64,000 nt of DNA from positions 11,912-75,911 of the forward strand of contig CACFZE010000007.1 of the NCBI GenBank assembly GCA_902570695.1. Direction: 5' to 3'. A model generated the notes under the pieces. It had not been told where the DNA came from, ran no database searches, and saw only the letters and a list, made by a program, of their open reading frames with translations. Positions 5,822-33,721 of the stretch are shown one piece after another; within the stretch, counting starts at the first letter, position 1; the number at the start of each line of letters is the position of its first letter. A program made the translations under genes and the position numbers. This DNA comes from an uncultured Pelagibacteraceae bacterium. GTDB taxonomy: Bacteria > Pseudomonadota > Alphaproteobacteria > Pelagibacterales > Pelagibacteraceae.

Positions 5822-6967
5822 GTGAATTTTAAAAAAATATTACCCCAGTTACTTACATTAGCAGTCGTTATTCTAGTCTTTGGTTTCTTTTCATATAACG
5901 CTCAAGTAAATATGGAAAATAGAGGACTTGAATTTGGTTTTGGTTTTTTAACATATGAAGCTTCTTTTGATATTCAATTTTCCTTAATTGAATATGATGG
6001 TTCACACTCTTATTTTAGAGCTTATCTTGTTGGATTATTAAACACAATATTAGTATCGGTTATTGGAATTATATTTGCGACTATACTTGGTGTAACTGTA
6101 GGTATAGCAAGATTATCTAGGAATTATTTAATTGAGCGAACGGCAGCTGTTTATGTGGAGTTTTTTAGAAATATTCCTTTGTTACTACAAATATTTTTTT
6201 GGTATTTTGCTGCATTAAGAGCTTTGCCATTACCTGAAAAAGCAGAACCTATGTTTGGCGTTTTCTTCTTAACAATAAAAGGTTTTTTTATTCCTGCATT
6301 TGTTTGGAATAATCTAGATATTTTTATTTATTCAGTAATCGCAGCAATCATCTCAATAGTTTTTGTTAGATTATACGCAAAAAAAAAGCAGGAAAATCAA
6401 GGTATTCAAACACCAGTTTTATCAATATCTATTGGTCTTTTAATTATTTTGCCATTGTTAAGTTTTTTTCTAGGTGGAGTAGATGCATCTGTTGAAATAC
6501 CAGTTATTGAACAATTATCACAAACATCTTTTACTTATAAGGGTGGACTTAAATTGCCACCTGAATTAATTGCATTAGCACTAGCTTTATCATTATATAC
6601 AGCAACTTTTATAGCTGAAAATGTAAGAGCTGGCGTTCAAGGTGTTAGTAAAGGCCAGAAAGAGGCTGCTGCTTCAATTGGCTTGACTCCTAATCAAGTT
6701 CTAAAATTAGTAGTTATGCCACAAGCATTGAGGATTATAATTCCTCCAACAACTAATCAATATTTAAATTTAACAAAAAATTCTTCACTTGCTGCAGCTA
6801 TTGCTTACCCAGATTTAGTTTTAGTTTTTGCTGGAACTGCTTTAATGCAAACAGGTAGTGCTATCGAAATTGTTTCTATCACAATGTTAACTTATTTAAC
6901 TTTAAGCATAACAATCTCAATATTTATGAATTGGTATAATAAAAAAATAGCTATTAAAGAAAAATAA
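5822..6967 (+). CDS. aapQ: Amino-acid ABC transporter permease AapQ/YhdX
   Basis: GTG start; GLLNT, FRNIPLLLQ, EAA loop and NLTKNSSLA motifs. Confidence 0.9.
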   Translation: MNFKKILPQLLTLAVVILVFGFFSYNAQVNMENRGLEFGFGFLTYEASFDIQFSLIEYDGSHSYFRAYLVGLLNTILVSVIGIIFATILGVTVGIARLSRNYLIERTAAVYVEFFRNIPLLLQIFFWYFAALRALPLPEKAEPMFGVFFLTIKGFFIPAFVWNNLDIFIYSVIAAIISIVFVRLYAKKKQENQGIQTPVLSISIGLLIILPLLSFFLGGVDASVEIPVIEQLSQTSFTYKGGLKLPPELIALALALSLYTATFIAENVRAGVQGVSKGQKEAAASIGLTPNQVLKLVVMPQALRIIIPPTTNQYLNLTKNSSLAAAIAYPDLVLVFAGTALMQTGSAIEIVSITMLTYLTLSITISIFMNWYNKKIAIKEK

Positions 6968-15545: not shown

Positions 15546-16385
15546 ATGGATACGTTAGTATTTTCTGTCGTTTTATTGGCAGCACTACTTCATGCCACTT
15601 GGAATGACATGGTCAAAAAACACTCGGATAAAGCAGTTGCTCTAGCAGGTATAATTTTAGGTCATATACCTTTTTCAATTGTTGCAATCATCTTGTTACC
15701 CGCACCCTCAATAGAAAGTATACCTTATATCTTCGCAAGTATTGTTGTTCATATAGGTTATCAATGGTTTTTGCTTAAATCATATGAAATAGGAGATTTG
15801 ACAAAAGTCTATCCTATAGCAAGAGGAACGGGGCCTTTATTTGTAACTGTAATTTCGATTTTATTGTTAGGAGTAGTGTTAAATAAATTTATACTGATCT
15901 CTATTTTTTTAATATGTTTTGGAATTTTTTTTCTTGGTATTTCTGATTATAAAAACAGTAACTTAAATGTAATTAAATTTTCTTTTATTACAGGTTTGTT
16001 TATTGGATCATACTCACTTGTAGATGGATATGGAGCAAGAATAAGTAATTCTGCAATATCTTTTGTCAGCTGGTCTTTCATATTAAACGCTATGATTTTC
16101 CCATTTATTCTAAGTTTAAGAGGTCAACAGGATATTATTAAAAAGGTTTATAGAGACGGTAAAATGATATTTTTTTACGGTGTAACATTATCATATGCTA
16201 GTTATGCCTTGGCTGTATGGGCATTTACAAAAGCTCCAATACCTGTTGTTACATCCTTAAGAGAAACAAGTATTTTATTATCGATATTTATTGGATATTT
16301 TTTATTAAAAGAAAGTATCAATTTAAAAAAAATCATATCAATTTTATTTATTTTAATAGGTGTGATTGGGATTAAATTATTTTAA
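15546..16385 (+). CDS. DMT/EamA-family transporter
   Basis: About 10 hydrophobic segments; LLHATWN, GDLTKVYPIARG, LRETS motifs. Confidence 0.8.
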   Translation: MDTLVFSVVLLAALLHATWNDMVKKHSDKAVALAGIILGHIPFSIVAIILLPAPSIESIPYIFASIVVHIGYQWFLLKSYEIGDLTKVYPIARGTGPLFVTVISILLLGVVLNKFILISIFLICFGIFFLGISDYKNSNLNVIKFSFITGLFIGSYSLVDGYGARISNSAISFVSWSFILNAMIFPFILSLRGQQDIIKKVYRDGKMIFFYGVTLSYASYALAVWAFTKAPIPVVTSLRETSILLSIFIGYFLLKESINLKKIISILFILIGVIGIKLF

Positions 16386-16419
16386 TTAAATTGTAACAAT
16401 CTATAAATATTTTTGTCAT
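16380..16419 (+). promoter_or_regulatory. Pho-box-like array (11-bp period) at the start of a gene-less intergenic region
   Basis: Half-sites TTTTAAT (16380), TTGTAAC (16391), TATAAAT (16402, poor), TTGTCAT (16413). Confidence 0.55.
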
Positions 16420-16435
16420 TAAAGTTTATTAAAAA

Positions 16436-16546
16436 TAATTAACAAAAATTTTAAATAATAAAACATCTTCATTTCCTCTTTGTTTAAAATTTTGTTGATT
16501 AACTACCTTCCCCTTTTTGTTATAAAAAAGGGGAGGGACAATTTTT
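16436..16546 (+). ncRNA. Candidate PhoB-induced small RNA (stem-loop with anti-RBS loop plus terminator)
   Basis: About 20-bp stem 16436-16458/16480-16501, loop containing AAACATCTTCATTTCCTCT, then GC-rich hairpin 16506-16537 and T5; G-U pairs favour the + strand. Confidence 0.45.
16506..16546 (+). terminator. Terminator-like hairpin
   Basis: CCTTCCCCTTTTT-GTTATA-AAAAAGGGGAGGG (13 bp with one U-G), then ACAA and TTTTT. Confidence 0.65.
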
Positions 16547-16551
16547 ATACA

Positions 16552-16764
16552 TTAATTATTTACAGACGCAGGACTCTCACTGGTTTTCTTTTTAGCTAAT
16601 TTTTTTGCTTTTTTTTCGGCAACTTTTTTTTCAATACCTGCAATTTTTATATTAATTTTAGCTAGTTTTTTTTCCTTTAAATTAATCTTATTTTTAAGTT
16701 TATCTATTGATTTGATAAACTTTTTTTTTCTTCTTTCATTTTTCTTTAACATCTTACCCATCAT
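16552..16764 (-). CDS. Small lysine-rich basic protein, unknown function
   Basis: Perfect AGGAGG RBS (16767-16772), likely start 16761; 24 Lys + 2 Arg in 70 aa; coiled-coil-like. Confidence 0.7.
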   Translation of the reverse strand: MMGKMLKKNERRKKKFIKSIDKLKNKINLKEKKLAKINIKIAGIEKKVAEKKAKKLAKKKTSESPASVNN

Positions 16765-16845
16765 CGCCTCCTATGAAAATTTAAATTATTATATTTAATT
16801 TAAATTTCTAAGTAAAATAATTTGTCTAAAATTTTGTTATTAAAA

Positions 16846-17730
16846 TTATAGTAAAAAATTTACTTTTTTTTGTGAAAATTCAATATCAATCTTATTGTGA
16901 CATCCAAAATTATCTCCATCAACCTGAACGGGAATTTCAAAATTATTGCAATTAATTTGGATACTTTTTGAATAGGTGGTTATAACAGATTTGTTTCTTG
17001 ATAAATCTCCATAAATAATTATCAAAATAATATAATACATTAATTTTAGCCTACTTAAATCTTTAAAAACATAAGTTATTAATCTATCATCAAAAATGTT
17101 TGACTTATTTATCTTATGATGACCAGCATAATATTTGGTATTAGAACTTAATACCCAATCAGCTTGATATTTTTGACCATCAAAGAAAACATCAAGTTTA
17201 TTATTTTTCATAAATAAAAAATGCTGAAACCCTTTTAAACCAAATATTATCTTACCAAGTATTTTTTTTATACGTGTATCAATAGAGTGAACAATTTTAG
17301 CATCCCAACCAATACCAGCCATTAAAAAAAAATAATTTTTATTTATTTTTATAAGATTAGATTGTTTATAATTATTTGATGTTAAAATATTACAAATATC
17401 GTCTACTTTTTTATTTATCGATAACTCTGCTTGAAGTAAATTGGCTGTTCCAGCCGGTATGTACCCAATTGCAAATTTATCATTAAAATCAAAGTCATTT
17501 TTTATCAATTCATTGATAGCAAATGATACTGATCCATCTCCACCAGCAACTATCAATCTATCATAATTTTTATTTTTAAATTCCAAAAATATTTCTTTCG
17601 CCTCTTTTTCAGATTTGGTTTTGAAATAATCTACAGAGTTGTTAATTTTTAATTTTTCATAAATCTTATTTACAAATTTTATTTTTTTCCCTGTTGAAGA
17701 ATTAAGGTTATAAATCAAACAATAATGCAT
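16846..17730 (-). CDS. Soluble diacylglycerol/lipid kinase family protein (YegS/DgkB/BmrU-like)
   Basis: IYNLNS, AGGDGS, PAGTANL, GIGWDA, QVDGD motifs. Confidence 0.85.
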   Translation of the reverse strand: MHYCLIYNLNSSTGKKIKFVNKIYEKLKINNSVDYFKTKSEKEAKEIFLEFKNKNYDRLIVAGGDGSVSFAINELIKNDFDFNDKFAIGYIPAGTANLLQAELSINKKVDDICNILTSNNYKQSNLIKINKNYFFLMAGIGWDAKIVHSIDTRIKKILGKIIFGLKGFQHFLFMKNNKLDVFFDGQKYQADWVLSSNTKYYAGHHKINKSNIFDDRLITYVFKDLSRLKLMYYIILIIIYGDLSRNKSVITTYSKSIQINCNNFEIPVQVDGDNFGCHNKIDIEFSQKKVNFLL

Positions 17731-17737
17731 AATTTTT

Positions 17738-17766
17738 TCGTAACTAATTTTTAATAAATCTTTAAC
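17738..17766 (+). promoter_or_regulatory. Pho-box array facing plcP
   Basis: TCGTAAC-TAAT-TTTTAAT-AAAT-CTTTAAC, 11-bp period; 20-mer 17749-17768 recurs at 33702-33721 (minus). Confidence 0.65.
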
Positions 17767-17797
17767 ATTTCAATGACATAAGAATTAAATGATTCGA

Positions 17798-17815
17798 GTT
17801 ACAGTTGTGTTACAA
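17798..17815 (-). promoter_or_regulatory. Pho box facing the DAG-kinase-like gene
   Basis: Minus strand TTGTAAC-ACAA-CTGTAAC. Confidence 0.7.
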
Positions 17816-19681: not shown

Positions 19682-20830
19682 ATGTTTTGGGCAGAGTTGA
19701 TACTTATAGTTATAATAATCATTTTATTATATTTTTTATTTAAAAAAAATATTAAGCCAGAAAACACAGCACCAATTGTAAACAAGACTAATAAGGATGA
19801 TTTAGGAAAAAGAGTAATTATTGAAGAATTAGAAGATCAATTCTTTGCTTTAGATAAATATAATTTAATCAAATATCTAAACAAAAGTGCAAAACAACGT
19901 TTTGGAGAAAACCTAATTGATAAAAATATTTCAAGTGTAATTAGAGATACAAAATTATTAGAAACGATTGAAGAGGCTATCAAAGATCAAACTACAAAAA
20001 ATGTCAATGTAGAAATAAATTTACCATCTTATCAACTTTACAAAATCTATGTTATTCCTGGTCCGACCCATTTGTTTCCAGAAATAAACTCTGTCGTATT
20101 GTTTCTAAAAGATTTTACAGAAATAACAAAAGCACAAAAACTAAAAACTGATTTTGTTGCAAATGTGAGTCATGAATTAAGAACACCTTTAGTTTCGATT
20201 AAAGGTTCGTTAGAAACTATTCTTGGACCAGCTTCAAAAGACCAAGAGGCGCAAAAAAAATTTATGTCTATCATGTCTGATCAAGTATTAAGAATGGAAA
20301 ACCTAATCAATGATTTATTGATTTTAAGTAGAATAGAATTGGAAGAACATATCAAGCCTAATAAAATTGTGAGCTTAAATGATCTTTTTACAAATATTAA
20401 AAGTAACTTTGAATTAATTCTTAAAAAAAAGAAAATCAATTTACATATTGAACTTATGGAACCAACCTTAGTTTTTGGTGATAATGATAAATTGTTAACT
20501 GTATTTTCAAATTTAATTGATAATTCAATTAAATATTCACAAGATGGAAAAAATATATACGTAAAAAGTCAAATCAGTGAAGGTAAATTAATTGATAAAA
20601 ATATTGCCATTATCATTAAAGATGAAGGTGTTGGAATACCTCACCAGCTAATTCCAAGAATAACTGAAAGATTTTTTAGAGTAGATACAGAAAAAAGTAA
20701 AAAGGTTGGTGGTACAGGTTTAGGTTTAGCTATAATGAAACATATTATATCTCAACACAGAGGTGACTATGAGATTCTCAGTAAAGTTAATGAAGGTACT
20801 GAAATTAAGATATATCTTCCAACAAAATAA
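19682..20830 (+). CDS. phoR: Phosphate regulon sensor kinase PhoR
   Basis: N-terminal TM, PAS-like region, FVANVSHELRTPL, ERFFRVD, GGTGLGL. Confidence 0.9.
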   Translation: MFWAELILIVIIIILLYFLFKKNIKPENTAPIVNKTNKDDLGKRVIIEELEDQFFALDKYNLIKYLNKSAKQRFGENLIDKNISSVIRDTKLLETIEEAIKDQTTKNVNVEINLPSYQLYKIYVIPGPTHLFPEINSVVLFLKDFTEITKAQKLKTDFVANVSHELRTPLVSIKGSLETILGPASKDQEAQKKFMSIMSDQVLRMENLINDLLILSRIELEEHIKPNKIVSLNDLFTNIKSNFELILKKKKINLHIELMEPTLVFGDNDKLLTVFSNLIDNSIKYSQDGKNIYVKSQISEGKLIDKNIAIIIKDEGVGIPHQLIPRITERFFRVDTEKSKKVGGTGLGLAIMKHIISQHRGDYEILSKVNEGTEIKIYLPTK

Positions 20831-20924
20831 TTAATTTAAAAAATTGTTTAAAATTAACTCTTATTCAACCAAGATTTAACAAATCTTTTGTTGATTCGTA
20901 TCTTAGTTTATTTAAAATTAATTT

Positions 20925-21533
20925 ATGATTAAGATATTACATAGTATTTTAATTATTATTTTTTTTTTAATGTCGATCATTACTAAAAGTAATGCATCAG
21001 ATATTTCTACAATTTTAAGAAACCAGCAATTAACTGTTTTTGATATTGGTATCTTTAGATTACAGGAAGACTTAAAAAGTTCATATCCTGAAATAAAAAA
21101 ACATAAAGATGTACCGTATGAAGATATATATATAGATGTTCTCAGTTCCTATTGGAGAAATACAGTAGATTTAATTGTTTCAATTCCAGTAAATGAAAAT
21201 TTAAAAAAAGAGAACTACATGTCAGATTCATTGAGATGTCGAAACATATTTAATTCTGTTAGAGATCATTTACTGAGAAATGAAAATATGAGTAATTATA
21301 GGTTTACTATGGCGACAAGCTATTTAACATCTATTTTTTCTACTCCTACTAGTTGGCCAAAATGGCGTTATGACCAAAGTATTCTTGAGGAATTAGTTAA
21401 TTTGGTAAAACTGGAAGTTGTCTTAAGACCAACCCCAGATCTTGCTTTTAAGGATAACGTAAATCCAGTTTCATGCAAAGGTGGTCTAGAAACTGAAAAT
21501 AGTGAGATTATTGTCTCAATGAAATACAACTAA
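20925..21533 (+). CDS. Hypothetical exported protein
   Basis: Signal-peptide-like N-terminus ending SNA-S; 202 aa; two Cys; no motif recognised. Confidence 0.7.
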   Translation: MIKILHSILIIIFFLMSIITKSNASDISTILRNQQLTVFDIGIFRLQEDLKSSYPEIKKHKDVPYEDIYIDVLSSYWRNTVDLIVSIPVNENLKKENYMSDSLRCRNIFNSVRDHLLRNENMSNYRFTMATSYLTSIFSTPTSWPKWRYDQSILEELVNLVKLEVVLRPTPDLAFKDNVNPVSCKGGLETENSEIIVSMKYN

Positions 21534-21543
21534 AAAGTTAGGT

Positions 21544-21572
21544 TTTTAACAAAACTGTAATAATTCTGTAAT
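21544..21572 (+). promoter_or_regulatory. Pho box of pstS
   Basis: TTTTAAC-AAAA-CTGTAAT-AATT-CTGTAAT. Confidence 0.85.
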
Positions 21573-26879: not shown

Positions 26880-27563
26880 ATGTCGGCTCACATTTTTATA
26901 GCTGAAGACGAGGCTGCTATAATAACTCTACTAAAGTATAACCTTGAAAAAGAAGGTTACAAAGTAAGTTTCTGTGAAAATGGTGAAGATGCGCTTAAAC
27001 AAATTAAAGATAAGCTTCCTGACTTAATATTAATGGATTGGATGTTGCCCGATTTGTCAGGCGTTGAAATATGTAAAAATTTAAAAAAAGACAAAAAGCA
27101 TAATGACATACCAGTAATAATGTTAACAGCAAAAGGCGAGGAGGAGGACAAATTAAGAGCTTTTGATACAGGTGCAGATGATTATGTAACAAAACCATTT
27201 AGTCAAAAAGAACTTAATGCAAGAATTAAATCTTTACTCAGAAGATCAAAACCACAATCCACCGTTGATGTTGTTGAGTTTACAGATCTAAAAATAGATA
27301 GAATAACAAAAAGAGTTTATAGAAATAACATTGAAATATCTCTAGGACCTACAGAATTTAAATTATTAGATTTTTTTATCAAAAATCCAAAAAGGGTATA
27401 TTCAAGAGAACAACTCTTAAACAATGTTTGGGGAGAAAATATTTACGTTGAAACTAGAACTGTCGATGTGCATATCAGAAGATTAAGACAGGCTATTAAT
27501 ATAGATAATACTAAGCCTTTAATTAGAACTGTAAGATCAGCAGGTTATTCTTTAGAATCTTGA
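26880..27563 (+). CDS. phoB: Phosphate regulon response regulator PhoB
   Basis: DWMLP, GADDYVTKPF, VETRTVDVHIRRLR. Confidence 0.95.
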   Translation: MSAHIFIAEDEAAIITLLKYNLEKEGYKVSFCENGEDALKQIKDKLPDLILMDWMLPDLSGVEICKNLKKDKKHNDIPVIMLTAKGEEEDKLRAFDTGADDYVTKPFSQKELNARIKSLLRRSKPQSTVDVVEFTDLKIDRITKRVYRNNIEISLGPTEFKLLDFFIKNPKRVYSREQLLNNVWGENIYVETRTVDVHIRRLRQAINIDNTKPLIRTVRSAGYSLES

Positions 27564-28069
27564 AGGTCTTTAGGTCTAGTAAATTCTTTAATTAAACCAT
27601 TTCCATCTAATTTATTCCATTCATTAAAATCAAAATAAATTTTTGCAAATGCCGATGTCGGAAATTTGTAGTTTAATAATTTAAAATTGTTGTTGTTGTG
27701 ATTTTTTGTCAGTGATCGTATTAGATTTCTAACAGTAGGTTCATGGTTAATTAAAAGCACTGATTTATATTTTTTTGGTATTTTTTTTATTATATCTATA
27801 ATTTTATCTTCACTTGATAAGTATAATTTTTTTGAAGAAATAATTTTTTTTGGTTTATCTATTTTTTTTAATAAAATTTTTAGAGTTTTCTTTGTTCTTT
27901 TTGATGATGAAAGTAATATGTAATCAAACTTATAATTGTTTTTAACAAAAAATTCACAAATCTTTTTTGCATTTTTCTCGCCACGCTTACTTAATGGTCT
28001 TTCATGATCACCAAGATTTGGGTGGTCCCAGCTAGATTTTGCATGACGCATAACGTATAATTTAAGCAT
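27545..28069 (-). CDS. sixA: Phosphohistidine phosphatase SixA family
   Basis: MRHAKSSW, DHERPLSKRG, INHEP; true start taken at ATG 28069. Confidence 0.85.
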   Translation of the reverse strand: MLKLYVMRHAKSSWDHPNLGDHERPLSKRGEKNAKKICEFFVKNNYKFDYILLSSSKRTKKTLKILLKKIDKPKKIISSKKLYLSSEDKIIDIIKKIPKKYKSVLLINHEPTVRNLIRSLTKNHNNNNFKLLNYKFPTSAFAKIYFDFNEWNKLDGNGLIKEFTRPKDLQDSKE

Positions 28070-31779: not shown

Positions 31780-31830
31780 CTTTAATATATTTTTAATTTT
31801 ATTGAAACATATCTTTAATCCAAATGTAAT
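31780..31830 (+). promoter_or_regulatory. Five-unit Pho-box-like array with no plus-strand gene downstream
   Basis: CTTTAAT (31780), TTTTAAT (31791), TTGAAAC (31802), CTTTAAT (31813), ATGTAAT (31824), exact 11-bp period. Confidence 0.6.
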
Positions 31831-31866: not shown

Positions 31867-31905
31867 GAAATACGCTCGGTATTATTATTGAGCGTATTTC
31901 TTTTT
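31867..31905 (+). terminator. Hairpin plus T-tract overlapping the Nudix gene 3' end
   Basis: GAAATACGCTC...GAGCGTATTTC perfect 11-bp stem, extendable by G-U pairs on the + strand, then TTTTT. Confidence 0.7.
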
Positions 31906-32373
31906 ATAAAACAAATACATTCCTATATGAGATGCATTGTTAAATTTACCATTCTCAATTAATTGAATTATTTGATGATCTGAAACTATGTGGATTTTAA
32001 TTCCTTTTTCAGGCTTTGAAATTTTAATAAGATTATTACAAAAAAAACCAGTAATTTTAGTGGTGAGTCGACCTGGTTCAGAATAAAATGAAGTAATTTT
32101 TCTTAATTTATTTCTTGATTTATATCCTGTTTCTTCAATTAATTCTTTTTTAGCAGATATTAAAGCTGTTTCATGTTTTTCAATTATACCAGATGGAAAC
32201 TCAAAATTAATTTGATTTATAGGAATTCTTTTTTGTGAAACCAAAATATACTTGTTCTTAATTTTGGGTATTACTATTGAAAGGTTTGAGGTTTTTAAAA
32301 AATGATAAAATTCTTTTTTTTTAAATTTTTTATTAATTAATTTAATATTGTTTGTTAGTTTTAAATTTTTCAA
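31885..32373 (-). CDS. Nudix hydrolase (ADP-ribose pyrophosphatase-like)
   Basis: Nudix box GIIEKHETALISAKKELIEETGY (R replaced by K); TTG start overlapping the aqpS TGA. Confidence 0.82.
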   Translation of the reverse strand: MKNLKLTNNIKLINKKFKKKEFYHFLKTSNLSIVIPKIKNKYILVSQKRIPINQINFEFPSGIIEKHETALISAKKELIEETGYKSRNKLRKITSFYSEPGRLTTKITGFFCNNLIKISKPEKGIKIHIVSDHQIIQLIENGKFNNASHIGMYLFYKKKYAQ

Positions 32374-33029
32374 TCTTTTTCTAAGAATAATTTTTTTGCG
32401 ATATAAACAGCAATTAACATACCAATTAATTCTGCAATTATATAAAAAGGAGTGTTTAAATAACTTATACCAGTAAACGACTCTGTGAATGTTCTTGCTA
32501 TTGTTACAGCAGGATTTGCAAAAGAAGTTGACGAGGTAAACCAATAACCAGCAGTGATATATAAACCAACTGATCCAGCAACAGCTATTTTACCTGATTT
32601 CATTGAACCAAAAATAATTAAAATAAGACCCAACGTAGCAACTATTTCAGAAGTAAAAATATAAATCCCACTCCTTGACTTTGTTGATAATTCAAAAACC
32701 TGATGTTCAAAAAAGAAATTAGCTAATGCTACACCTAGCAAACATCCAAGTATCTGAGCAGAAATATAAAAGGGTAGAAGGTTTTTTTTTAACTTTCCTG
32801 TAATTGTCATAGCAATACTTACAAATGGATTGAAATGAGCCCCAGATACATCAGCAAATACTGTTATTAGCACAAACAATCCAGCTCCGGTTGCCAATGT
32901 GTTTGCTATTAGCATTACTGCTATATCATTAGTTAGATTTTCTGCCATTAAACCTGATCCAACTATGATCATGACCAGAAAGCAACTTCCAATGAACTCT
33001 GAAAGAAAATATCTATTTTTATTTTTCAT
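32370..33029 (-). CDS. aqpS: MIP aquaglyceroporin of the arsenic-associated AqpS type
   Basis: SGAHFNP and YWFTSSTSFANPAVT motifs; adjacent to arsC. Confidence 0.8.
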   Translation of the reverse strand: MKNKNRYFLSEFIGSCFLVMIIVGSGLMAENLTNDIAVMLIANTLATGAGLFVLITVFADVSGAHFNPFVSIAMTITGKLKKNLLPFYISAQILGCLLGVALANFFFEHQVFELSTKSRSGIYIFTSEIVATLGLILIIFGSMKSGKIAVAGSVGLYITAGYWFTSSTSFANPAVTIARTFTESFTGISYLNTPFYIIAELIGMLIAVYIAKKLFLEKD

Positions 33030-33450
33030 CTATCCAATCTTTAATTTTATTACTTATAATATTGAAAGTTTTTCTAATGATTATTTGCTTTTCTTCGTCA
33101 TTTGCATTTTGAAGTTTAGCTACCGGATCTTCTATATCCCAATGTATAATTTGGTTTTTATCAGGCCAAATAGGACATACCTCATTATTTGCGTTGTTGC
33201 ATACTGTTATTACATGATCCATTTTTAATTCTTTATTGATAAATTCTTCAAAGTTTTTAGAACTGTAATTAGTTAGATCATAACTTTTATTTTTTTCTAA
33301 AAAACTTTTAACATCTTCATTGATTTTTCCAGATGGATTACTACCAGCACTAAAAGCATTAAATTTATTTGAGTATTCGTTATTAATAATACTCTCAGCG
33401 ATAATGCTTCTCGCTGAATTTCCTGTGCATACAAATAAAATATTTTTCAT
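33019..33450 (-). CDS. arsC: Arsenate reductase, LMW-PTP (thioredoxin-coupled) type
   Basis: P-loop CTGNSARS plus resolving Cys pair TVCNNANNEVCP. Confidence 0.88.
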   Translation of the reverse strand: MKNILFVCTGNSARSIIAESIINNEYSNKFNAFSAGSNPSGKINEDVKSFLEKNKSYDLTNYSSKNFEEFINKELKMDHVITVCNNANNEVCPIWPDKNQIIHWDIEDPVAKLQNANDEEKQIIIRKTFNIISNKIKDWIDEK

Positions 33451-33671
33451 TAAAAAATAATTTTATAAATACCAATTACAAACAAAGGAATTTGTAATCC
33501 AAAATTAGTTAATATGGCCTTATCTTTTAATAAAAAACCCGATATTGTCCATCCAACTACACCAAGACCATGAAAATATATATTAATTGGATATATATTT
33601 AAATTTGTAAGCAATATTCCTGTTAAGACTAAAAACGTGCTTATCCATTTGAGATATTTTTTTAATAACAT
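33450..33671 (-). CDS. Small 3-TM membrane protein, unknown function
   Basis: AGGAG RBS; three hydrophobic segments; stop overlaps the arsC start. Confidence 0.75.
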   Translation of the reverse strand: MLLKKYLKWISTFLVLTGILLTNLNIYPINIYFHGLGVVGWTISGFLLKDKAILTNFGLQIPLFVIGIYKIIF

Positions 33672-33692
33672 AAAACTCCTTTCTCTATACTT

Positions 33693-33721
33693 ATGACAGT
33701 TATGTTAAAGATTTATTAAAA
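33693..33721 (-). promoter_or_regulatory. Pho-box array of the 73aa-arsC-aqpS-Nudix operon
   Basis: Minus strand TTTTAAT-AAAT-CTTTAAC-ATAA-CTGTCAT, including the canonical CTGTCAT half-site. Confidence 0.8.

What the first reader, a model, noticed from the sequence alone, without database searches (positions are those of the whole stretch)
31885..33721. ArsR-less arsenate-detoxification operon wired to PhoB, sharing a promoter motif with plcP
Seen: four translationally coupled minus-strand genes (73-aa 3-TM protein, LMW-PTP ArsC with all three catalytic Cys, AqpS-type MIP, Nudix hydrolase) and no arsR anywhere in the window. The 58-bp upstream gap holds TTTTAAT-AAAT-CTTTAAC-ATAA-CTGTCAT. The 20-mer TTTTAATAAATCTTTAACAT is identical at 17749-17768 (+, before plcP) and 33721-33702 (-), and both are followed 6-8 nt later by CATAAG(A/T)AT. 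Established: arsenate enters through Pst; ArsC plus AqpS detoxify it in Sinorhizobium meliloti, where ArsR controls the operon. Inference: detoxification is induced pre-emptively by P starvation rather than by arsenite, with two extra uncharacterised genes.
Basis: partly seen in the sequence, partly recalled or inferred. Interest (0 to 1): 0.78.

Follow-up and report, generated by a model that had tools for sequence, protein, structure and literature searches.

The report
SAR11 arsenate operon behind a Pho box
In this SAR11 (Pelagibacter) genome piece, a small arsenate-detoxification operon has no arsenic sensor gene nearby and sits behind a well-conserved binding site for the phosphate-starvation regulator PhoB; this gives a promoter-level explanation for a response to phosphate starvation that is already published.

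Summary
Four overlapping minus-strand genes (DUF6552, LMW-PTP ArsC, AqpS-like MIP, Nudix) lie at 31885-33671. Pfam finds no ArsR among the window's ORFs of 90 aa or more. The 20-mer is exact at 17749-17768(+) and 33702-33721(-).

The PhoB reading is well supported by sequence:
- A weight matrix built only from pstS promoters of other SAR11 contigs ranks the ars promoter second in the 64-kb window (30.8 bits, against 39.8 for the window's own pstS and 13.6 for the third site).
- The 18-bp box is kept in all 76 related loci that reach upstream of the operon (one has a single change in its core), although the upstream neighbour gene varies.
- In every locus with sequence downstream, the cassette abuts the pst-phoU-phoB(-ppk-ppx-phoX) cluster.

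Much of this is already published. Giovannoni et al. 2019 described the SAR11 Ia.3 ArsC plus aquaporin module, its 2.3-fold induction in P-starved HTCC7211, and its inverse relation to ocean phosphate.

New here:
- the Pho box and promoter geometry;
- DUF6552 as the invariant first gene, with homologues in SAR11 myophages;
- Nudix as an optional last gene;
- an orphan phoX promoter next door.

PhoB binding, the transcription start, any arsenic response and genome-wide absence of ArsR remain untested. Verdict: an ordinary but cleanly resolved new member of the Pho regulon; moderate interest.

The parts
33704..33721 (-). Pho box of the ars operon: TTTTAAT-AAAT-CTTTAAC, two 7-bp direct repeats with a 4-bp A/T spacer
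   Evidence: With its third repeat it scores 30.8 bits on a 29-mer pstS-derived matrix, second best in the window. The core TAA[TC]AAAT..TAAC is kept in 75 of 76 related loci and differs by one base in L071.
33687..33699 (-). CTGTCAT third repeat overlapping the likely -10 region (TGTCATAAGTAT). A TA-start hexamer lies exactly 10 nt after the box.
   Evidence: Read: every lineage has TAAGTA, TATAAA, TAATAA, TATAGA or TAAACA at offset 10, while the 7-mer itself varies. That this is the -10 element is an inference.
33676..33680 (-). Shine-Dalgarno AGGAG, 4 nt before the DUF6552 ATG
33450..33671 (-). DUF6552 (PF20189): 73-aa protein with three membrane helices, the invariant first gene of the operon
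   Evidence: Pfam E=2e-10; pLDDT 91.5; present wherever the contig reaches it among the 80 loci.
33019..33450 (-). LMW-PTP-type arsenate reductase ArsC (thioredoxin-coupled type, three catalytic Cys)
32370..33029 (-). AqpS-like MIP channel, the presumed As(OH)3 exit. First motif is NPF, second is NPA, with Arg at +5.
31885..32373 (-). Nudix hydrolase (ADP-ribose / NudF-like), an optional last gene
   Evidence: Full-length, truncated or absent in other lineages.
31867..31900 (.). 15-bp-stem hairpin overlapping the Nudix stop codon; likely a bidirectional terminator between the convergent ppx and ars transcripts
17749..17766 (+). Pho box of plcP-agt, the same 18-mer as the ars box, followed by TGACATAAGAAT (17774-17785)
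   Evidence: 19.9 bits on the 18-mer matrix. Conserved with variation in 16 distinct plcP promoters.
21544..21572 (+). pstS Pho boxes: TTTTAAC-AAAA-CTGTAAT-AATT-CTGTAAT. This is the reference site for this organism.
   Evidence: 39.8 bits.
26880..27563 (+). phoB, the response regulator presumed to bind the boxes (phoR is at 19682-20830)
31780..31830 (+). Orphan phoX promoter: five 7-mers in 11-bp phase. It is left behind where phoX was deleted, and points into the terminator, antisense to Nudix.
   Evidence: (PhoX PF05787, 552 bits, in L030).

Best explanation
This is a three-gene core cassette (DUF6552, ArsC, AqpS-like MIP) plus an optional Nudix gene. It sits at the end of the SAR11 phosphate-acquisition island and is transcribed from its own PhoB-dependent promoter. 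Under phosphate limitation, PhoR phosphorylates PhoB. PhoB~P binds the 18-bp Pho box at 33704-33721, which takes the place of a -35 element, and recruits RNA polymerase to a weak -10 element 10 nt downstream. Transcription then starts near 33681, giving a leader of about 10 nt that carries the Shine-Dalgarno sequence. The overlapping genes are translated as one unit. ArsC reduces the arsenate that the co-induced Pst transporter lets in, and As(OH)3 leaves through the MIP channel. There is no metalloid sensor: control follows the cause of exposure (high-affinity phosphate uptake at a high As:P ratio) rather than arsenic itself.

Shown here: the gene content; the box and its match to pstS, plcP and phoX promoters; its conservation; the cassette's linkage to the pho cluster; and in-situ transcription. 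Taken from the literature: 2.3-fold induction by P starvation. Inferred: PhoB binding, the position of the -10 element and transcription start, the absence of arsenic sensing, and the roles of DUF6552 and Nudix.
For: 1. Independent motif test. A matrix built from 24 distinct pstS promoters of other SAR11 metagenome contigs, with the window excluded, ranks the ars site second of about 128,000 positions (30.8 bits; window pstS 39.8; third site 13.6). All nine best hits lie in the 16.3-33.8 kb P island.
2. Footprint. The box survives in all 76 loci that reach upstream of the operon, with at least four different upstream neighbour genes (mem112, PhyH, Zur, a proteasome-like gene). Similarity begins only a few bases before the box.
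3. Substitution pattern. The half-sites vary as T[G/T]TAA[T/C], for example TTGTAAT, CTGTAAT and TCGTAAC. This is the Pho-box pattern seen at pstS, plcP and phoX.
4. Geometry. A TA-start hexamer lies exactly 10 nt after the box in every lineage. No sigma-70-type -35/-10 pair lies within the 58-bp gap; the only nearby match spans the mem112 3' end, and the scan's total does not exceed shuffles.
5. Linkage. In all 71 loci that have sequence downstream of the operon, the cassette is convergent with ppx or with phoB of the pst-phoU-phoB cluster.
6. Expression. Eight marine metatranscriptomes hold contigs spanning the MIP/ArsC and ArsC/DUF6552 junctions. In five of the eight, coverage ends at or before the promoter gap, with contig ends at 33669 and 33676.
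7. Literature. ArsC is up 2.3-fold in P-starved HTCC7211 and not induced by dimethylarsenate; SAR11 ArsC frequency is inversely related to ocean phosphate; only these two arsenic genes were found in SAR11 genomes (PMC6426599).
8. No ArsR in the window or in the neighbours tested, no dyad operator and no riboswitch.
Against: PhoB binding was not tested. The published induction is modest (2.3-fold), which would also fit an indirect effect or a high basal level. The upstream genes in the window lie on the same strand with only a 58-bp gap and no terminator; one metatranscriptome contig (33556-33906) crosses that gap and another reaches 33710, so read-through contributes or DNA contaminates those libraries. 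The box-to-CATAAG spacing differs between ars (6 nt after the 20-mer) and plcP (8 nt). A few lineages (L063, L079) score low on the pstS matrix (3.5 bits) although they fit the general consensus. No arsenate or arsenite response has been tested in SAR11. Genome-wide absence of ArsR/SmtB regulators could not be checked here.
Confidence: 0.75

Rival explanations
1. The operon has no regulated promoter of its own. It is transcribed by read-through from the upstream zur-ahpC-mem112 genes, or from a constitutive A/T-rich promoter. The Pho-like box is an A/T-rich coincidence and the 2.3-fold P-starvation effect is indirect.
For: Same strand, 58-bp gap, no terminator between mem112 and DUF6552. One metatranscriptome contig spans 33556-33906 and another reaches 33710. 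The published induction is small.
Against: The upstream gene differs between lineages (PhyH, Zur, a proteasome-like gene, a Nudix copy) while the box stays fixed. The box is the second-best match in 64 kb to an independently built pstS matrix. Five of eight metatranscriptomes show no coverage across the gap.
Confidence: 0.12
2. The box is bound by another regulator, for example CtrA. The window's 18-mer also fits the CtrA consensus TTAA-N7-TTAAC.
For: TTTTAATAAATCTTTAAC contains TTAA-N7-TTAAC. The CtrA consensus TTAA-N7-TTAA is taken from PMC9437464.
Against: Other lineages have TGTAAT or CGTAAC half-sites, which break TTAA but keep the Pho-box pattern. The same motif heads pstS, phoX and plcP, which are classic Pho genes. 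Whether SAR11 has CtrA at all was not established here.
Confidence: 0.03
3. Dual control: PhoB activates, but an unlinked ArsR/SmtB-family repressor elsewhere in the genome also gates the operon in response to As(III).
For: The closest MIP and ArsC relatives all sit behind arsR. Only 64 kb of the genome was inspected. In Crocosphaera, arsB responds to both arsenate and P limitation (PMC11665274).
Against: No dyad operator in the 58-bp gap. A survey of SAR11 genomes found only ArsC and the aquaporin as arsenic genes. SAR11 genomes carry very few regulators (general knowledge, not tested here).
Confidence: 0.1

Closest known systems
SAR11 Ia.3 'LMWPc_ArsC + aquaporin' arsenate-resistance module (Giovannoni et al. 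2019, mBio, PMC6426599)
   Same: The same two genes in the same clade. They were reported as adjacent, enriched in low-phosphate oceans, linked to the arsenate tolerance of HTCC7211, and with ArsC up 2.3-fold in P-starved cells.
   Different: The passages of that paper read here mention no promoter, no Pho box, and neither the DUF6552 gene upstream nor the Nudix gene downstream. Nor do they mention the fixed position of the cassette at the end of the pst-phoUB cluster.
Alphaproteobacterial arsR-arsC(LMW-PTP)-aqpS-arsC(Grx)-arsH operons (Novosphingobium pCAR3, Rhizobium pCB3090_2; S. meliloti arsR-aqpS-arsC-arsH from general knowledge)
   Same: The ArsC(LMW-PTP) gene overlaps an AqpS-type MIP gene in the same order. 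The MIP is 46% and the ArsC 32-40% identical. Both keep the three Cys, the NPA..R signature and the SFANPA motif.
   Different: No arsR, no Grx-type arsC and no arsH. A DUF6552 gene and a Pho box occupy the position of arsR. The first NPA motif is NPF.
Pho-regulon promoters of E. coli type (Pho box = two 7-bp direct repeats with a 4-bp A/T spacer replacing the -35 element)
   Same: The repeat architecture, the 11-bp phasing, the roughly 10-bp distance to the -10 element and the lack of a -35 element. The same motif is found at pstS, phoX and plcP of this organism (definition in PMC4563254).
   Different: The half-site is A/T-shifted (TTTTAAY or YTGTAAY instead of CTGTCAT). Binding is untested.
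Phosphate-regulator control of arsenic genes elsewhere: PhoBR-dependent aioBA in Halomonas HAL1 (PMC4563254); arsB of Crocosphaera induced by P limitation (PMC11665274)
   Same: Arsenic genes are placed under phosphate-starvation control.
   Different: Those cases concern arsenite oxidase or an efflux pump, and they also respond to arsenic. Here a reductase-plus-channel operon appears to rely on PhoB alone.

Membership tests
Pho regulon promoter (PhoB-activated) | [quoted passage not shown] | tested here: met
   TTTTAAT-AAAT-CTTTAAC at 33704-33721; definition from PMC4563254.
Pho regulon promoter (PhoB-activated) | Match to the organism's own bona fide Pho boxes (pstS) | tested here: met
   30.8 bits on a matrix built from 24 pstS promoters of other SAR11 contigs; rank 2 in the window.
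Pho regulon promoter (PhoB-activated) | Box in place of the -35 element, about 10 bp upstream of a -10 element | tested here: inconclusive
   A TA-start hexamer lies 10 nt after the box in all lineages, and no sigma-70 -35/-10 pair lies within the 58-bp gap. The transcription start is not mapped; metatranscriptome contig ends at 33669 and 33676 are only suggestive.
Pho regulon promoter (PhoB-activated) | PhoB~P binds the site | not testable with these tools
   Needs EMSA, footprinting or ChIP.
Pho regulon promoter (PhoB-activated) | Induced by phosphate limitation | not tested
   Literature only: ArsC up 2.3-fold in P-starved HTCC7211 (PMC6426599). The primary papers (Carini 2014, 2015) are not held.
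Canonical ars operon (ArsR-controlled) | arsR in or beside the operon | tested here: not met
   No ArsR/HTH_5/HTH_20 domain in the gene-like ORFs of at least 90 aa in the window or in the upstream neighbours of other lineages.
Canonical ars operon (ArsR-controlled) | Arsenate reductase plus an As(III) exit route | tested here: met
   ArsC and an AqpS-like MIP encoded by overlapping genes.
Thioredoxin-coupled LMW-PTP ArsC (pI258 / B. subtilis type) | CX5R P-loop Cys, the two resolving Cys (Cys82/Cys89 equivalents) and the catalytic Asp | tested here: met
   Cys8, Arg14, Cys84, Cys92 and the Asp of the conserved DP motif align to 1LJL/1LJU and are conserved in ars-operon relatives.
Thioredoxin-coupled LMW-PTP ArsC (pI258 / B. 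subtilis type) | Score above the NCBIfam equivalog cut-off (TIGR02691) | tested here: not met
   73.6 bits against a cut-off of 174.3. It is a divergent member and its activity has not been assayed.
AqpS-type arsenic-associated MIP | Close homology and synteny with MIPs inside ars operons | tested here: met
   45-48% identity over the full length to MIPs that lie directly after an LMW-PTP arsC in arsR operons.
AqpS-type arsenic-associated MIP | Two NPA motifs | tested here: inconclusive
   The first motif is NPF (the relatives have NPA). The second is NPA, with the Arg at +5 as in the relatives.
CtrA-controlled promoter | TTAA-N7-TTAA conserved across orthologous promoters | tested here: not met
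   Present in the window's lineage, but broken in most other lineages by TGTAAT or CGTAAC half-sites.

The most novel reading that the evidence does not exclude
DUF6552, the highly conserved three-helix membrane protein that always heads the operon and replaces arsR, is a functional part of arsenate/phosphate handling. It might gate or partner the MIP, or modulate uptake. Because SAR11 myophages (HTVC008M, Mosig EXVC030M and many uncultured T4-like contigs) carry homologues, it could be a new host-derived auxiliary gene through which phages manipulate the same process.
Probability: 0.12. Interest if true: 0.6.

Novelty: new member of a known kind. Interest (0 to 1): 0.35.

Why it matters
SAR11 is the most abundant heterotroph in the surface ocean, and arsenate stress accompanies phosphate scarcity there. 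A Pho box on the ars cassette would show that this streamlined cell has dropped metalloid sensing and lets the phosphate regulator anticipate arsenate entry through Pst. It would also explain the published P-starvation response.

The work also gives a usable SAR11 Pho-box model, TTTTAAY-AAAW-YTKTAAC(-AWWT-CTGTAAT). With it, the P-acquisition island reads as a set of swappable cassettes (plcP-agt, pstS, phoX, ars), each with its own box. That helps in interpreting metatranscriptomic markers of P stress. The gain is incremental, because the physiology and ecology are already published.

Tried and rejected
- Metatranscriptome mapping. Two read-laying runs failed on a sequence filter. The shorter stretch worked, but contigs give only rough transcript ends.
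- DUF6552 fold. The model is confident, but Foldseek against the PDB found nothing significant (best E=1.7, generic three-helix MIT domains; SemiSWEET/SWEET only at probability 0.21 or less). A SemiSWEET- or PnuC-like transporter idea is therefore unsupported. A PDB sequence search found nothing.
- DUF6552 outside SAR11. The family is small: 254 clusters at 50% identity. Its distant members sit between gp59 and gp32 of T4-like pelagiphages, not in ars or pho contexts, so context gives no arsenic-specific function.
- A link between the AhpC-like genes near DUF6552 in the phages and in the window: no sequence similarity.
- CtrA box: rejected on the substitution pattern.
- ArsR-type dyad operator: none.
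- Riboswitch or other known RNA: none; the only Rfam hits in the window are five tRNAs.
- Sigma-70 promoter scan: no better than shuffles.
- Recent duplication as the cause of the 20-mer identity: rejected. The flanks are unrelated, and related contigs have plcP boxes that differ by 1-4 bases.
- Primary expression papers (Carini 2014, 2015): not held.
Full report
**What is there.** The window is A/T-rich (about 28% G+C) and belongs to a SAR11 (Pelagibacteraceae) genome. The MIP protein is 87-100% identical to proteins of 80 Pelagibacteraceae genomes and single-cell assemblies. Kilobases 16.8-33.7 form a phosphate island:
- a diacylglycerol kinase gene (16846-17730, minus strand), divergent from plcP-agt-phoR;
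- a 202-aa unknown ORF;
- pstSCAB-phoU-phoB;
- a SixA-like gene on the minus strand;
- ppk-ppx;
- then, convergent with these, Nudix, MIP, ArsC and DUF6552 (31885-33671, minus strand).

Upstream of the operon on the same strand are a 112-aa membrane protein, an AhpC-like protein, Zur and znuBC.

- The four genes overlap by 1, 11 and 2 nt.
- DUF6552 is a confident three-helix membrane protein.
- ArsC has the CX5R cysteine, both resolving cysteines and the catalytic Asp of the pI258 enzyme, although it scores far below the NCBIfam equivalog cut-off.
- The MIP is 45-48% identical over its full length to MIPs that directly follow an LMW-PTP arsC in arsR-arsC-MIP-arsC-arsH operons on Novosphingobium and Rhizobium plasmids. 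'AqpS-type' is therefore justified, with the peculiarity that the first NPA motif is NPF.
- The Nudix protein has an almost intact Nudix box and resembles ADP-ribose pyrophosphatases.
- The gene-like ORFs of at least 90 aa in the window were scanned against Pfam; none is an ArsR.
- The 20-mer is exact at both places and exceeds chance.

**Is the box a Pho box?** The window's pstS promoter reads TTTTAAC-AAAA-CTGTAAT-AATT-CTGTAAT. I fetched 80 metagenome contigs carrying pstS relatives, extracted their pstS, plcP and orf202 upstream regions, and built a weight matrix from 24 distinct pstS sites, leaving out the window. Scanning both strands of the window gave:
- the window's own pstS site first, at 39.8 bits;
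- the ars promoter second, at 30.8 bits;
- the next site at only 13.6 bits;
- all nine best hits inside the P island.

The third-ranked site, at 31780-31830, is five 7-mers in 11-bp phase in the ppx/Nudix spacer. It aligns with the ppx-phoX promoter of genomes that still carry phoX there, so it is an orphan Pho promoter. This adds phoX as a further reference for the half-site pattern.

**Conservation.** In the 80 genomic loci, DUF6552-ArsC-MIP is present wherever the contig extends, while Nudix is full-length, truncated or missing. The upstream neighbour is mem112, PhyH, Zur, a proteasome-like gene or a second Nudix copy. Even so, the 18-bp box sits 22-34 nt before the start codon in all 76 loci that reach that far, across about 40 distinct upstream sequences (one has a single change in the box core), and similarity begins only a few bases before the box. 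The half-sites vary as T[G/T]TAA[T/C]. That is the pattern seen at pstS, plcP and phoX, and it breaks the CtrA consensus TTAA-N7-TTAA, which the window's copy happens to fit. A TA-start hexamer lies exactly 10 nt after the box in every lineage. Some lineages lack a Shine-Dalgarno sequence and may produce a leaderless mRNA. Downstream, the cassette is always convergent with ppx or directly with phoB of a pst-phoU-phoB cluster.

**Expression.** Eight marine metatranscriptomes contain contigs that cover the operon and cross the MIP/ArsC and ArsC/DUF6552 junctions. In five of them coverage stops at or before the promoter gap, with contig ends at 33669 and 33676. One contig crosses into the upstream gene and one reaches 33710. 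These contigs carry no strand information and can include DNA, so they show expression and co-transcription but not the start site. A 15-bp-stem hairpin at the Nudix stop codon is the likely terminator. No dyad operator and no known RNA element is present.

**What is already known.** Giovannoni et al. 2019 (PMC6426599) reported that:
- HTCC7211 tolerates arsenate;
- ArsC is up 2.3-fold in P-starved cells and not induced by dimethylarsenate;
- the gene's frequency is inversely related to ocean phosphate.

Sebastian et al. 2016 (PMC4796936) predicted Pho boxes in plcP clusters. Control of arsenic genes by phosphate regulators is known in Halomonas and Crocosphaera. My searches found no published description of the Pho box at the ars promoter, of DUF6552 as the operon's first gene, or of the cassette's fixed attachment to the pho cluster.

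**The extra genes.** DUF6552 is a small family (254 clusters at 50% identity). Its more distant members lie between gp59 and gp32 of T4-like pelagiphages, including the cultured phages HTVC008M and Mosig EXVC030M. Fold and sequence searches against solved structures gave nothing significant. Its function stays open, and its constant position argues only that it matters to the cassette. Nudix is dispensable for the cassette.

**Verdict.** The best explanation is direct PhoB activation of an ArsR-less arsC-aqpS cassette (confidence 0.75). Read-through or constitutive transcription, another regulator, or an unlinked ArsR are the lesser alternatives. This is a new, well-documented member of the Pho regulon rather than a new kind of system.

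Noticed in passing
window 31780-31830 (+): Five Pho-box half-sites in 11-bp phase lie in the convergent ppx/Nudix spacer. This is the promoter of phoX, which is present here in L030, L034 and L044 (638-aa Tat-signal PhoX) but deleted in the window. The orphan promoter now points into the terminator hairpin, antisense to the ars operon.
   Followed up: yes
window 17798-17815 (-): A second strong Pho-box-like site (TTGTAACACAACTGTAAC, 20.2 bits) lies in the dagk/plcP divergent spacer. It faces the diacylglycerol-kinase gene and is conserved in close relatives. The lipid kinase may also be under PhoB control, or the site may act on plcP.
   Followed up: partly
window 16380-16420 (+) and 16386-16845: Pho-box-like repeats (TTTTAAT-TAAA-TTGTAAC-AATC-TATAAAT-ATTT-TTGTCAT) lie right after the EamA stop codon, with no ORF downstream. 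A G+C-rich hairpin follows at about 16508-16540, and a very basic 70-aa ORF lies at 16552-16764 (minus strand). This could be a small RNA or chance.
   Followed up: no
window 20873-20900 (+), upstream of the 202-aa ORF 20925-21533: A conserved half Pho box followed by TGATTC (ATTTAAC-AAAT-CTTTTGT-TGATTCG) precedes an unknown secreted-looking ORF that comes before pstS in nearly all the SAR11 contigs where that region is covered. GANTC motifs (GATTC, GAGTC) recur in the pstS, plcP and orf202 leaders.
   Followed up: partly
window 27940-27968 (+): A weak Pho-box-like site (6.6 bits) lies 115-143 nt upstream of ppk, inside the oppositely oriented SixA-like gene.
   Followed up: no
L163-L170; phage records KC465899 (L171) and MT647606: DUF6552 homologues (30-63% identical to each other, about 35% to distant cellular members) are encoded between gp59 and gp32 in T4-like Pelagibacter myophages and in many uncultured marine phage contigs.
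   Followed up: partly
L027-L057 (for example L030 4418-5299): In many lineages a PhyH-family dioxygenase gene lies directly upstream of DUF6552. In those lineages the operon has no Shine-Dalgarno sequence and TATAAA lies 9 nt before the ATG, which suggests a leaderless or near-leaderless mRNA.
   Followed up: no
L014 4805-5266; L014 and L018-L024 about 6661-6798: The Nudix gene is decaying or mobile. It is truncated to about 46 codons in several genomes, absent in others, and L014 has a second, 62%-identical copy upstream of DUF6552.
   Followed up: partly
window 32820-32828 (MIP residues 67-69): The first NPA motif of the MIP is NPF, whereas the ars-operon relatives keep NPA. The effect on the pore is unknown.
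   Followed up: no
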